A stretch of 64,000 nucleotides of DNA from a virus. Taxonomy: Duplodnaviria; Heunggongvirae; Uroviricota; Caudoviricetes. The position numbers were made by a program. The stretch lies in the IMG/VR virus record IMGVR_UViG_2687453424_000001; one strand, 5' to 3'. Each line of letters begins with the position of its first letter. Within the stretch, counting starts at the first letter, position 1. Positions 54,001 to 57,000 of the stretch are shown here, piece after piece.

Positions 54001-57000
54001 TTTCAGCTCAAGGCCGTTGCCGTCACTGCATAAACCATCGGGAGAGCAGGCGGTGCGCATACTTTCGTCGCGATAGATGATCGGGGATTCAGTAACATTC
54101 ACGCCGGAAGTGAACTCAAAGAGGGTTCTGGCGTCGTTCTCGTACTGTTTTCCCCAGGCCAGAGCCTTAGCGTTAACTTCCGGAGCCACACCGGTGCAAA
54201 CCTCAGCCAGCAGGGTGTGGAAGTAGGACATTTTCATGTCAGGCCACTTCTTTCCTGATCGGGGTTTTGCTATTACGTTGTGAATTTCTGAAGCTGTGAT
54301 GACGCCGAGCCGTAATTTGTGCCACGCATCATCTCCCTGTTCGACAGCTCTCACGTCGATCCCAGTACGCTGCAGGATAATGTCCGGTGTCATGCTGCCA
54401 CCTTCTGTTCAGTGGCTTTTTGTTTCAGGAATCCAAGAGCTTTTACTGCTTCGGCCTGTGTCAGTTCTGACGATGCACGAATGTCGCGGCGAAATATCTG
54501 GGAACAGAGCGGCAATAAGTCGTCATCCCATGTTTTATCCAGGGCGATCAGCAGAGTGTTTATTTCCTGCATGGTTTCATCGTTAACCGGAGTGATGTCG
54601 CGTTCCGGCTGACGTTCTGCAGTGTATGCGGTATTTTCGACAATGCGCTCGGCTTCATCCTTGTCATAGATACCAGCAAATCCGAAGGCGAGACGGGCAC
54701 ACTGAATCATGGCTTTATGACGTAACATCCGTTTGGGATGCGACTGCCACGGCCCCGTGATTTCTCTGCCTTCGCGGGTTTTGAATGGTTCGCGGCGGCA
54801 TTCATCCATCCACTCGGTAACGCAGATCGGATGATTACGGTCCTTGCGGTAAATCCGGCATGTGCAGGATTCATTGTCCTGCTCAAAGTCCATGCCATCA
54901 AACTGCTGGTTTTCGTTGATGATGCGGGACCAGCCATCAACGCCCACCACCGGAACGATGCCGTTCTGCTTATCAGGGAAGGCGTAAATTTCTTTCGTCC
55001 ACGGATTAAGGCCGTACTGGTTGGCGACGATCAGCAATGCGATGAACTGCGCATCGCTGGCATCACCTTTAAATGCCGTCTGGCGAAGAGTGGTGATCAG
55101 TTCCTGTGGGTCGACAGAATCCATGCCGACACGTTCAGCCAGCTTCCCAGCCAGCGTTGCGAGTGCTGTACTCATCCGTTTTATACCTCTGAATCAATAT
55201 CAACCTGGTGGTGAGCAATGGTTTCAACCATGTACCGGATGTGTTCTGCCATGCGTTCCTGAAACTCAACATCGTCATCAAACGCACGGGTAATGGCTTT
55301 TTTGCTGGCCCCGTGGCGTTGCAAATGATCGATGCATAGCGATTCAAACAGGTGCTGGGGCAGGCCTTTTTCCATGTCGTCTGCCAGTTCTGCCTCTTTC
55401 TCTTCACGGGCGATCTGCTGGTAGTGACGCGCCCAGCTCTGAGCCTCAAGACGATCCTGAATGTAATAAGCGTTCATGGCTGAACTCCTGAAAATGGCTG
55501 TGAAAATATCGCCCGCGAAATGCCAGGCTGATTAGGAAAACAGGAAATGGGGTTAGTGAATGCTTTTGCTTGATCTCAGTTTCAGCATTAATATCCATTT
55601 TTTATAAGCGTCGACAGCTTCACGAAACATCTTTTCATCGCCAATAAAAGTGGCGATAGTGAATTTAGTCTGGATAGCCATAAGTGTTTGATCCATTCTT
55701 TGGGACTCCTGGCTGATTAGGTATGTCGATAAGGCGTTTCCATCCGTCACGTAATTTACGGGTGATTCGTTCAAGTAAAGATTCGGAAGGGCAGCCAGCA
55801 ACAGGCCACCCTGCAATGGCATATTGCATGGTGTGCTCCTTATTTATACATAACGAAAAACGCCTCGAGTGAAGCGTTATTGGTATGCGGTAAAGCCGCA
55901 CTCAGGCGGCCTTGATAGTCATATCATCTGAATCAAATATTCCTGATGTATCGATATCGGTAATTCTTATTCCTTCGCTACCATCCATTGAAGGCCATCC
56001 TTCCTGACCATTTCCATCATTCCAGTCGAACTCACACACAACACCATATGCATTTAAGTCGCTTGAAATTGCTATAAGCAGAGCATGTTGCGCCAGCATG
56101 ATTAATACAGCATTTAATACAGAGCCGTGTTTATTGAGTCGGTATTCAGAGTCTGACCAGAAATTATTAATCTGGTGAAGTTTTTCCTCTGTCATTACGT
56201 CATGGTCGATTTCAATTTCTATTGATGCTTTCCAGTCGTAATCAATGATGTATTTTTTGATGTTTGACATCTGTTCATATCCTCACAGATAAAAAATCGC
56301 CCTCACATTGGAGGGCAAAGAAGATTTCCAATAATCAGAACAAGTCGGCTCCTGTTTAGTTACGAGCGACATTGCTCCGTGTATTCACTCGTTGGAATGA
56401 ATACACAGTGCTTATTCGTACTAATAAAATACCCAATTTTCTGTTTCTTGGTTGTGTCCAAAGTTATATTCAATATCTGGTGTTGATGTATCAATATTCT
56501 TCATACCATCAACAAGAGTTGATACAACAGCCAAATCTTGTTTGATTCTCATTAAATGGTATTTCTTCCGGCGCAATAAACTTTCAATGGCAAGTTTCTT
56601 CGTTGGGAATGCAAAAGATCTTTCTGCATTTTTTGCTACTTTCTTAATTGCATATCTATTTCTCCTTTGTTTCCATTCCTGTAACCACTGATTTGGTGCT
56701 GGTTTAAAATTAACAATCCAATGCGCAGGAACCAACCATGCATAATGCTCTGTCTGATGAAAAGCTATATATTGAAGTGCGAATATTTTTATCCCATCTT
56801 CTTCAACTGTCGCCTGGAATCTCCAGAAAACAGGCATTCCATCATGTTCAGTTTCTGATTCAGGAAAAGGTACGCTCCATGATTTTGTCATATCTCACCT
56901 CAAATAAGTGGTTTGCTGCCTAATTTCATTTTCTGGCGACCAACACAAGTCACCTCGCCGTCAGTTGTTTTGATTTCCGGTAGCCTGCCGCGTAAATGGC

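What the first reader, a model, noticed from the sequence alone, without database searches (positions are those of the whole stretch)
56421..56891. AT-rich 156-aa moron occupying the ral/sieB position just downstream of N
In lambda the first genes after N are restriction-alleviation and exclusion functions. Here that slot holds a single unrelated 156-aa ORF, conspicuously AT-rich and followed by a terminator hairpin (56299-56316). This hypervariable position commonly carries anti-restriction or exclusion cargo.
Basis: partly seen in the sequence, partly recalled or inferred. Interest (0 to 1): 0.5.

Follow-up and report, generated by a model that had tools for sequence, protein, structure and literature searches.

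The report
Orphan early gene downstream of N
This is a real, well-conserved phage protein of unknown function (933W L0079 / HK97 gp45), sitting as a swappable cassette where phage lambda keeps its anti-restriction gene ral, so it is a reasonable but untested counter-defence candidate and not a new discovery.

Summary
The ORF at 56421-56891 (- strand, 156 aa) is real. It is 100% identical to phage 933W L0079 and 99.4% identical to HK97 gp45. Both are annotated as hypothetical, and I found no literature on either.

It is AT-rich (GC 35.7%, GC3 26.8%; N is 49%). It is under purifying selection (dN/dS 0.07-0.17).

It occupies a precisely bounded hypervariable slot. The conserved right flank (56889-56953) supplies the N stop codon, the ribosome-binding site and the ATG. 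The conserved left flank (about 56286-56411) is shared with lambda and holds a 14-bp hairpin and the terminator. Phage Sf6's record calls this flank "bsq4 boundary sequence" and "tL2A". The terminator therefore belongs to the backbone, not to the ORF, and no private promoter was found.

Other prophages carry different cargo in the same slot: Ral, an Nmad5 protein, or other unknowns.

The protein has no Pfam, NCBIfam or PADLOC match. A pLDDT 95.6 model has no PDB fold match. It belongs to a broad phage family whose distant members sit in early-left operons, often near DNA methylases, once near Lar and once near an Acb2/Tad1-like gene.

Best guess, at low confidence: a non-enzymatic early counter-defence or host-takeover factor.

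The parts
56421..56891 (-). [not shown]
56412..56888 (-). The variable cassette itself: the ORF body from just after the ATG to about 10 nt past the stop codon. This is what differs between prophages that share both flanks.
   Evidence: blastn breakpoints against lambda, HK97 and five E. coli prophages.
56889..56953 (-). Conserved right boundary: N stop codon, 58-nt spacer with the Shine-Dalgarno sequence GAGGTGAG, and the ATG that whatever cargo is present uses.
   Evidence: 95-100% identical in prophages carrying Ral, Nmad5 or an 83-aa protein instead. Sequence read.
56286..56411 (-). Conserved left boundary shared with lambda, 21, Sf6, HK97 and 2240 E. coli genomes. Sf6's record annotates it as 'bsq4 boundary sequence'.
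56376..56408 (-). 14-bp perfect hairpin inside the conserved boundary. It has no T-run and its role is unknown.
   Evidence: RNA fold of 56271-56425(-): -49.9 kcal/mol, z = -5.1.
56297..56318 (-). Intrinsic terminator, homologue of lambda tL2a. It is the first convincing intrinsic terminator downstream of pL and belongs to the backbone.
   Evidence: 8-bp stem, T-run. Sf6 annotation 'homology to phage lambda; tL2A'. HK97, phage 21 and mEp234 annotate a terminator here. RNA-seq shows a roughly 4-fold drop across it in LB, relieved on induction.
56950..57333 (-). Antiterminator N (H-19B/HK97 type, 127 aa), co-transcribed upstream gene.
   Evidence: Pfam PF25694 and phrog_271. 933W annotation.
57583..57611 (-). 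pL-like sigma-70 promoter (TTGATA-17-CATTAT), just upstream of the nutL annotated in 933W. It is the presumed source of the N-L0079 transcript.
   Evidence: nutL coordinates mapped.
55902..56270 (-). ea10 / 'ssb' (DUF2528), the first gene beyond the terminator. It is backbone shared with lambda.

Best explanation
Shown:
- The feature is 933W L0079 / HK97 gp45, a single-gene cassette in the hypervariable slot between N and the tL2a terminator of lambdoid pL operons.
- The conserved flanks supply its ribosome-binding site, ATG and downstream terminator. It has no evident promoter or terminator of its own.
- Its transcript level follows N and rises on SOS induction.
- It encodes a soluble, basic alpha/beta protein with no motif typical of an enzyme active site, no characterised homologue and no solved structural counterpart.

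Inferred:
- It is made at the very start of infection or induction, on the promoter-proximal pL transcript (about 1.3 kb, pL to tL2a), before N-dependent read-through is needed.
- It acts as a stand-alone binder. Conserved Lys/Arg residues lie on the beta-hairpin at residues 83-95 and on the long helix at 98-130, and they point to a nucleic-acid or acidic-protein partner.
- Its most likely role is to protect incoming or replicating phage DNA from host immunity, with restriction-type defences the first suspects, or otherwise to take over a host function.

In role this is analogous to Ral, which occupies the same slot in lambda, 21 and Sf6. It is not homologous to Ral.

Confidence in the identity and anatomy is about 0.9. 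Confidence in the counter-defence role is about 0.35, which is the figure entered below.
For: Identity:
- 100% DNA identity to 933W and protein identity to L0079.
- HK97 gp45 is 99.4% identical.

Real gene:
- dN/dS 0.07-0.17, and the ORF is improbable by chance.
- 40 invariant columns across 22 orthologues from Escherichia, Pectobacterium, Brenneria, Cronobacter, Rosenbergiella and others.

Cassette and slot:
- Breakpoints at 56411/56412 and 56889.
- Alternative cargoes are Ral, Nmad5, phrog_2471, phrog_3054 and phrog_1273 proteins.
- The flank is present in 2240 genomes and the ORF in 563.

Expression with N:
- No promoter-like site and no convincing terminator between N and the ORF.
- EDL933 RNA-seq RPKM in LB: N 200, L0079 274, ea10 64, kil 17.
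- With trimethoprim/sulfamethoxazole: 1890, 3123, 3757, 283.
- The prophage-expressed stk goes from 123 to 87 under the same treatment (PMC4048457).

Protein:
- No hit in Pfam, NCBIfam or PADLOC.
- AlphaFold2 model with pLDDT 95.6 and pTM 0.82.
- pI 9.1, with net charge +12 over residues 61-130; no hydrophobic segment.

Phage-wide family:
- 87 cluster representatives at E<1e-3.
- 12 BFVD fold matches at E<1e-3, all to uncharacterised proteins. The named ones come from diverse Erwinia, Achromobacter, Delftia, Rhizobium, Sinorhizobium and Tenacibaculum phages.

Guilt by association:
- Distant homologues sit in early-left operons that run towards xis/int.
- About 6 of 10 independent lineages with annotated neighbours have a DNA methyltransferase within a few kb, in five of them on the same strand (L019, L022/L037/L040 group, L025, L033, L039; opposite strand in L020).
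- One has Lar_restr_allev about 1 kb upstream (L020). One has an Acb2_Tad1_hairpin gene in the same operon (L037/L038).
- There is no conserved partner gene, so it works as a single-gene module.
Against: - There is no sequence or fold similarity to any characterised anti-defence protein, and no experiment of any kind.
- I computed no background control for the methyltransferase co-localisation. Early-left operons of temperate phages are rich in methylases anyway.
- No methyltransferase is present in this prophage's own pL operon.
- Apart from Ral, none of the alternative cargoes in the slot has a known function, so position alone says little.
- Conserved basic surfaces fit a DNA/RNA-binding regulatory or recombination accessory role equally well.
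- The RNA-seq values may include reads shared with the second copy in CP-933V, and signal from spontaneously induced cells.
- Rho-dependent termination between N and the ORF cannot be excluded by the scans used.
Confidence: 0.35

Rival explanations
1. Nucleic-acid-binding accessory of early phage DNA or RNA transactions. The protein binds DNA or RNA through its conserved basic hairpin and helix. It then modulates recombination, replication or transcription rather than host immunity.
For: - Net +12 charge over residues 61-130, with conserved K84, K87, R91, K98, R107-K110 and R115.
- Homologues lie among RecE/YqaJ, SSB, RdgC, Erf/Bet and Gam-type genes.
Against: - There is no helix-turn-helix, ribbon-helix-helix or OB signature.
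- The gene is dispensable in the sense that closely related phages replace it with unrelated cargo: mEp234 has the same N but a different gene. This fits accessory cargo better than a core DNA-metabolism function.
Confidence: 0.25
2. Host-physiology modifier or toxic take-over protein, similar in role to Kil or CIII. It binds and inhibits a host housekeeping protein early in lytic growth.
For: - Immediate-early expression pattern.
- Small stand-alone protein with no motif typical of an enzyme active site.
- Its neighbours kil, cIII and gam all act by binding host proteins.
Against: - There is no evidence of toxicity.
- The gene is kept in 563 complete E. coli genomes at >=98% identity. RNA-seq shows 200-600 RPKM in uninduced cultures, although most of that may come from induced cells.
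Confidence: 0.15
3. Superinfection-exclusion or abortive-infection gene serving the lysogen, as SieB does in lambda.
For: - Lambda has sieB in the same interval.
- The ORF is AT-rich, like the adjacent prophage-expressed stk / L0083 / L0084 defence-like block.
- Transcripts are detectable in uninduced cultures.
Against: - No own promoter was found.
- Transcript levels follow N and rise about 11-fold on SOS induction, while stk, L0081 and L0083 do not rise.
- There is no membrane segment (maximum Kyte-Doolittle 19-residue score 0.56) and no PADLOC hit (E 0.018 noise only).
- Fold relatives occur across very diverse phages, and from my own recollection of those phages (not checked here) several are virulent.
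Confidence: 0.1

Closest known systems
[not shown]
   Same: It is the same protein: 100% and 99.4% identity, with the same N - ORF - hairpin - terminator arrangement. Full-length match to phrog_1636 at E 2.7e-112.
   Different: Nothing differs. These entries carry no function ('hypothetical protein', 'unknown function'). No paper in the searchable library discusses them beyond one RNA-seq table.
Lambda Ral (restriction alleviation), also in phages 21 and Sf6
   Same: Ral occupies the same slot between N and tL2a in prophages that share both boundary sequences, and it is translated from the same conserved RBS and ATG. It is likewise a small early pL protein acting without a partner gene.
   Different: There is no sequence relationship: Ral is 66 aa and L0079 gives no Pfam hit. 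Ral's activity on type I restriction-modification is experimentally established (my own knowledge; cited in PMC12373910). L0079 has no tested activity.
Lambda SieB (superinfection exclusion)
   Same: It lies in the same interval downstream of N in lambda.
   Different: L0079 has no Pfam or PHROG match to SieB and no hydrophobic segment. It is regulated like N and not like a prophage-expressed gene.
Boundary-sequence-flanked mosaic modules of lambdoid phages (the 'bsq' elements annotated in Sf6; the concept comes from the HK620/Sf6/HK97 comparative papers, cited from my own knowledge)
   Same: The left flank 56291-56411 corresponds to Sf6's annotated bsq4 plus tL2A. The breakpoints coincide with gene boundaries.
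   Different: Nothing differs in kind. This is another allele at a described type of junction.
Other cargoes of the same slot: Nmad5-domain protein (PF18757; mEp235, HK244), VT2-Sakai H0090 (phrog_2471), Sf6 gp34 (phrog_3054), phrog_1273 proteins
   Same: They are interchangeable occupants of the slot, and all are of unknown function.
   Different: They are not homologous to L0079: hhalign probability <1% for gp34, HK633 gp43 and Nmad5.
Tudor/KOW/PWWP-like small beta domains followed by helices (for example PipX, 3n5b_B)

Membership tests
phrog_1636 / HK97 gp45 family (uncharacterised) | Full-length, significant profile match | tested here: met
   E 2.7e-112 over residues 1-156 of a 156-position profile. 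All 68 members of alignment A2 hit phrog_1636.
Ral antirestriction family | Sequence homology to lambda Ral (about 66 aa) | tested here: not met
   Pfam scan at E<=0.1 returns no family. PHROG hits are only unknown-function families.
Ral antirestriction family | Alleviation of type I restriction or enhancement of modification in vivo | not testable with these tools
   Needs plating assays with unmodified phage on EcoKI/EcoBI hosts.
SieB-type superinfection exclusion | Homology to SieB and a hydrophobic or membrane-associated character | tested here: not met
   No Pfam or PHROG SieB hit. Maximum Kyte-Doolittle 19-residue score 0.56, GRAVY -0.59.
SieB-type superinfection exclusion | Expression from the repressed prophage, independent of pL | tested here: not met
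   [not shown]
Moron (autonomous added transcription unit) | Base composition different from neighbouring genes | tested here: met
   GC 35.7% and GC3 26.8%, against 49-52% in N, gam, bet and exo.
Moron (autonomous added transcription unit) | Own promoter | tested here: not met
   No - strand sigma-70-like site between 56892 and 57333. The only one is pL at 57611-57583. A consensus scan cannot exclude weak or non-sigma-70 promoters.
Moron (autonomous added transcription unit) | Own terminator that travels with the gene | tested here: not met
   The terminator lies in backbone 98-100% identical to lambda and to prophages with other cargo. Sf6 annotates it as tL2A.
Lambdoid boundary-sequence-flanked cassette in the N-tL2a slot | Conserved flanks on both sides with unrelated cargo between them in related phages | tested here: met
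   Flanks 56286-56411 and 56889-56953 are conserved. Cargo differs in lambda, 21, Sf6, VT2-Sakai, HK633, mEp213, mEp234, mEp235 and several E. coli prophages.
Known defence systems (PADLOC-DB) | Significant match to a defence-protein model | tested here: not met
   Only Cas1_II at E 0.018 and 12.4 bits, which is noise.
Catalogued anti-defence proteins (for example dbAPIS or AntiDefenseFinder models) | Profile match to a curated anti-defence family | not testable with these tools
   No such library is available here. Pfam includes some of them (Lar, Acb2/Tad1, ArdA, Ocr) and none matched.

The most novel reading that the evidence does not exclude
L0079/gp45 founds a new-fold family of immediate-early phage counter-defence proteins, widespread in phages of Proteobacteria and seen by fold similarity in Tenacibaculum and Cellulophaga phages. 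It would neutralise a DNA-targeting host immune system, most likely of restriction type, by direct binding. In lambdoid phages it would be exchanged against Ral and other cargo at a dedicated 'first gene after N' slot, so that it is made before any antitermination is needed.
Probability: 0.3. Interest if true: 0.6.

Novelty: new member of a known kind. Interest (0 to 1): 0.35.

Why it matters
- Prevalence: the gene is carried by about one in ten complete E. coli genomes (563 of 5426). It is present in many Shiga-toxin phages (933W, H-19B, BP-4795, phi24B, Stx1a phages) and in the model phage HK97, yet it has no assigned function.
- Tractability: it is short and stands alone. It is expressed with N at the very start of the lytic programme. 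A confident model shows an unsolved fold, and the gene sits where Ral sits in other phages. This makes it a cheap, well-defined candidate for anti-defence screens.
- If a target were found, it would add a new inhibitor family. It would also help explain which hosts Stx phages can enter.
- As it stands, it is an annotated hypothetical gene in an already described mosaic junction.

Tried and rejected
Homology and fold searches that found nothing useful:
- Pfam, NCBIfam and PADLOC on the protein, and Pfam and NCBIfam on 68 family members: no hits.
- PDB sequence-profile searches with alignments A1 and A2: only coiled-coil noise, E >= 0.3.
- The first AlphaFold run, using 22 close orthologues, gave pLDDT 59 and was discarded. 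The 68-sequence alignment gave pLDDT 95.6.
- hhalign of the family against the alternative slot cargoes (Sf6 gp34, HK633 gp43, Nmad5): unrelated.

Context searches that found nothing useful:
- A conserved partner gene next to distant homologues: none.
- Domain fusions: the long hits P0059 and P0081 are repeat or low-complexity matches, not real fusions.
- Conjugative-plasmid leading regions: only phage-like 'plasmids' carry the gene.
- DNA methyltransferase in this prophage's own pL operon: none.

Ideas about the intergenic hairpins:
- They might be a known sRNA. Rfam finds only the cIII thermoregulator nearby.
- The Pas sRNAs of EHEC/EPEC prophages lie in the late region.

Literature:
- No hit for L0079, HK97 gp45, HK97p36, NP_037731 or phrog_1636.
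- The OLD preprint's 'gp45' belongs to a different phage, HK578.
- The held supplements of the accessory-gene screen in PMC12373910 contain neither this sequence nor the HK97 accession, and no 933W or Stx phage names.
- The search for related loci with A2 failed because the alignment is too divergent.
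Full report
**Observation**

The window has an ATG-initiated 156-codon ORF at 56421-56891 on the minus strand. A GAGGTGAG Shine-Dalgarno sequence precedes it.
- Its GC content is 35.7% and GC3 is 26.8%. N has 49.2%, gam 50.2%, bet 52.3% and exo 51.8%.
- The next gene upstream on that strand is the antiterminator N (56950-57333; Pfam N_peptide).
- A terminator-like hairpin with a T-run is at 56318-56297.
- At this composition, 156 stop-free codons have a probability of about 3e-6.
- Orthologues from other genera give dN/dS 0.07-0.17 where dS is not saturated.

The only addition is that the terminator is 102 nt beyond the stop codon, and a second, 14-bp perfect hairpin (56376-56408) lies between them.

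**Identity**

The region is 100% identical to phage 933W (AF125520). There the ORF is L0079, 'hypothetical protein', between N and ea10/'ssb'.
- HK97 gp45 is 99.4% identical at protein level.
- The same protein is in H-19B, BP-4795, phi24B, Min27, Stx2-86 and many Stx1a and Stx2a phages.
- It occurs in 563 of 5426 complete E. coli genomes.
- The prophage in this window is a 933W relative, not 933W itself. Its integrase end, at about 49,048, matches other Stx2a phages.

**The slot and the terminator**

Homology with lambda covers gam, kil, cIII, ea10, the terminator and the 14-bp hairpin. It stops at window 56411, 10 nt past the L0079 stop codon.

Prophages with other cargo share that left flank. 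They also share a right flank that begins at 56889. The right flank therefore includes the ATG, the Shine-Dalgarno sequence and the N stop codon. What is exchanged is essentially the ORF body, 56412-56888.

Cargoes found in the same place:

| Cargo | Where seen |
|---|---|
| Ral | phage 21, DE3, Sf6, several E. coli prophages |
| 207-aa Nmad5-domain protein | mEp235, strain UTAK-6 |
| 83-aa protein H0090 | VT2-Sakai; mEp234, which has the same N as HK97 |
| Sf6 gp34, HK633 gp42/43, mEp213 gp48-50 | those phages |

- Apart from Ral, all of these have unknown function, and those tested (Sf6 gp34, HK633 gp43, Nmad5) are not homologous to L0079.
- Sf6's record annotates the left flank as 'bsq4; boundary sequence' and the terminator as 'homology to phage lambda; tL2A'.
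- HK97, phage 21 and mEp234 annotate a terminator at the same place.
- The flank is present in 2240 of 5426 genomes.

The terminator is therefore a backbone element, not something the ORF brought with it.

**Transcription**

The only promoter-like site on the minus strand in 55.8-57.8 kb is at 57611-57583. That is just upstream of the nutL annotated in 933W, so it is pL. No convincing intrinsic terminator lies between pL and 56318.

Published strand-specific RNA-seq of EDL933 (Landstorfer et al. 2014, PMC4048457, supplementary table) gives these RPKM values:

| Gene | LB | Trimethoprim/sulfamethoxazole |
|---|---|---|

- L0079 therefore tracks N.
- A roughly four-fold drop occurs across the terminator without induction, and it disappears with induction.
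- I infer that L0079 is part of the promoter-proximal pL unit, about 1.3 kb, made together with N before antitermination is required.
- Caveats: reads may be shared with the CP-933V copy, signal may come from spontaneously induced cells, and Rho-dependent termination was not assessed.

**The protein**

It is 18.6 kDa with pI 9.1. It has no cysteines, seven tryptophans and no hydrophobic segment. Net charge is +12 over residues 61-130, and both ends are acidic.

Family searches:
- Pfam, NCBIfam and PADLOC give nothing.
- Close relatives (55-99% identity) come from enterobacterial genomes and metagenome contigs. The contexts I inspected are prophages, and every source name is 'hypothetical'.
- A profile search of 1.84 billion cluster representatives finds 87 proteins at E<1e-3. 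Most are 130-160 aa.
- They share a G at the first beta-turn, an H-E/Q-T motif and the block K..K...RFAF.TK..A...L..RK..QL.HL.R.L.
- None of them has a Pfam or NCBIfam family. Their only PHROG matches (1636, 13631, 25384 and others) are unknown-function families.

Structure:
- With this deeper alignment, AlphaFold2 gives a confident model (pLDDT 95.6, pTM 0.82).
- It has three long antiparallel strands, two short helices, a short fourth strand, a 33-residue helix and an ordered C-terminal tail.
- Foldseek against BFVD finds 12 matches at E<1e-3. All are uncharacterised, and the named ones come from Erwinia, Achromobacter, Delftia, Rhizobium, Sinorhizobium and Tenacibaculum phages.
- The fold is thus phage-wide and has no solved representative.

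**Context of distant homologues**

- All those with interpretable neighbours lie in early-left operons that run towards xis/int, among strings of small unknown ORFs.
- There is no conserved neighbour and no real domain fusion.
- A DNA methyltransferase lies within a few kb, usually in the same operon, in about six of ten independent lineages: L019, L020, the L022/L037/L040 group, L025, L033 and L039.
- One locus has a Lar restriction-alleviation gene about 1 kb upstream (L020). One has an Acb2/Tad1-hairpin gene in the operon (L037/L038).
- I computed no background control for this. The enterobacterial prophage in the window has no methylase in its pL operon.
- The gene is absent from conjugative plasmids.

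**Interpretation**

What is shown:
- a real, conserved, stand-alone early gene;
- a cassette in a described hypervariable junction;
- no private promoter or terminator found;
- regulation like N;
- a novel-fold, basic protein with no motif typical of an enzyme active site.

What is inferred: it acts as a binder at the very start of the lytic programme.

| Candidate role | Estimate | Main reasons |
|---|---|---|
| Counter-defence (restriction evasion first) | about 0.35 | positional equivalence with Ral; company kept by distant homologues |
| Nucleic-acid-binding accessory of early DNA/RNA transactions | about 0.25 | conserved basic hairpin and helix; recombination-gene neighbours |
| Host-protein inhibitor of the Kil/CIII type | about 0.15 | early expression; neighbouring genes act this way |
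| Prophage-serving exclusion | about 0.1 | disfavoured by N-like regulation, lack of a membrane segment and lack of an own promoter |

**Verdict**

- The 'moron with its own terminator' reading is not borne out. The anti-restriction or exclusion function remains a hypothesis.
- The gene has been annotated since the 933W and HK97 genome papers, and the junction type is described in the lambdoid literature, so this is not a new feature.
- Its value is as a well-defined, prevalent, structurally novel candidate for anti-defence testing.

Noticed in passing
window 56376-56408 (- strand): A 14-bp perfect hairpin with no T-run lies inside the conserved boundary sequence between the L0079 stop codon and tL2a. 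It is conserved at >=95% in 2240 of 5426 E. coli genomes, in lambda and in Sf6 (as bsq4). Its role is unknown. Candidates are an RNA processing or stability element, a recombination linker, or part of the tL2 cluster.
   Followed up: partly
window 57822-59899 (- strand): An AT-rich (32-41% GC) block lies between cI and pL. It contains L0084 (DUF3024, a full-length match to PADLOC candidate PDC-S43, E 4e-41), L0083 (phrog_3875, RuvC-like), Stk kinase (PADLOC mad6 and PD-T4-6 hits) and the 54-aa L0081. In RNA-seq, L0081, stk and L0083 were not SOS-induced (L0084 values were not seen). The block looks like a defence cluster expressed from pRM; only Stk has been studied, as far as I recall.
   Followed up: partly
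window 55784-55842 (- strand): Rfam Lambda_thermo (cIII thermoregulator RNA): 88.5 bits, E 1e-21. It is an ordinary lambda backbone element.
   Followed up: no
window 55553-55822 (- strand): kil is called as an 89-aa ORF here and in 933W, but the Lambda_Kil domain covers only residues 44-74 and lambda Kil is 47 aa. The long N-terminal extension overlaps cIII and may be an annotation artefact.
   Followed up: no
window 1-49048: Everything left of about 49,048 has no match in the phage collection and is 34-47% GC, which is AT-rich for E. coli. A stretch at about 2,001-5,500 reads as GC = 0, which indicates masked bases or N. The integrase at 49187-50431 (+) matches Stx2a phages such as Lyz12581Vzw and Stx2_EC3283, so the prophage is a mosaic 933W relative rather than 933W itself.
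   Followed up: partly
L037 3922-4209 and L038 2880-3167 (marine metagenome prophage): A 95-aa Acb2_Tad1_hairpin (PF24729) gene, a C5 DNA methylase and a distant L0079 homologue lie in one early-left operon ending at the integrase. This looks like a compact counter-defence operon.
   Followed up: no
L029 875-1264 (HK633 gp43) against L032 583-834 (VT2-Sakai H0090): HK633 gp43 (129 aa) matches phrog_2471 over its first 83 residues only. HK633 gp42 (58 aa) matches the C-terminus of Sf6 gp34's family (phrog_3054). The slot cargoes are themselves recombined or truncated in some phages.
   Followed up: no
window 56402-56430 (+ strand): A weak promoter-like site (TACACA-17-TAAAAT, 9 of 12 matches) lies antisense to the 3' end of L0079. 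It is within chance expectation: 3 sites found against 5.4 expected from shuffles.
   Followed up: no
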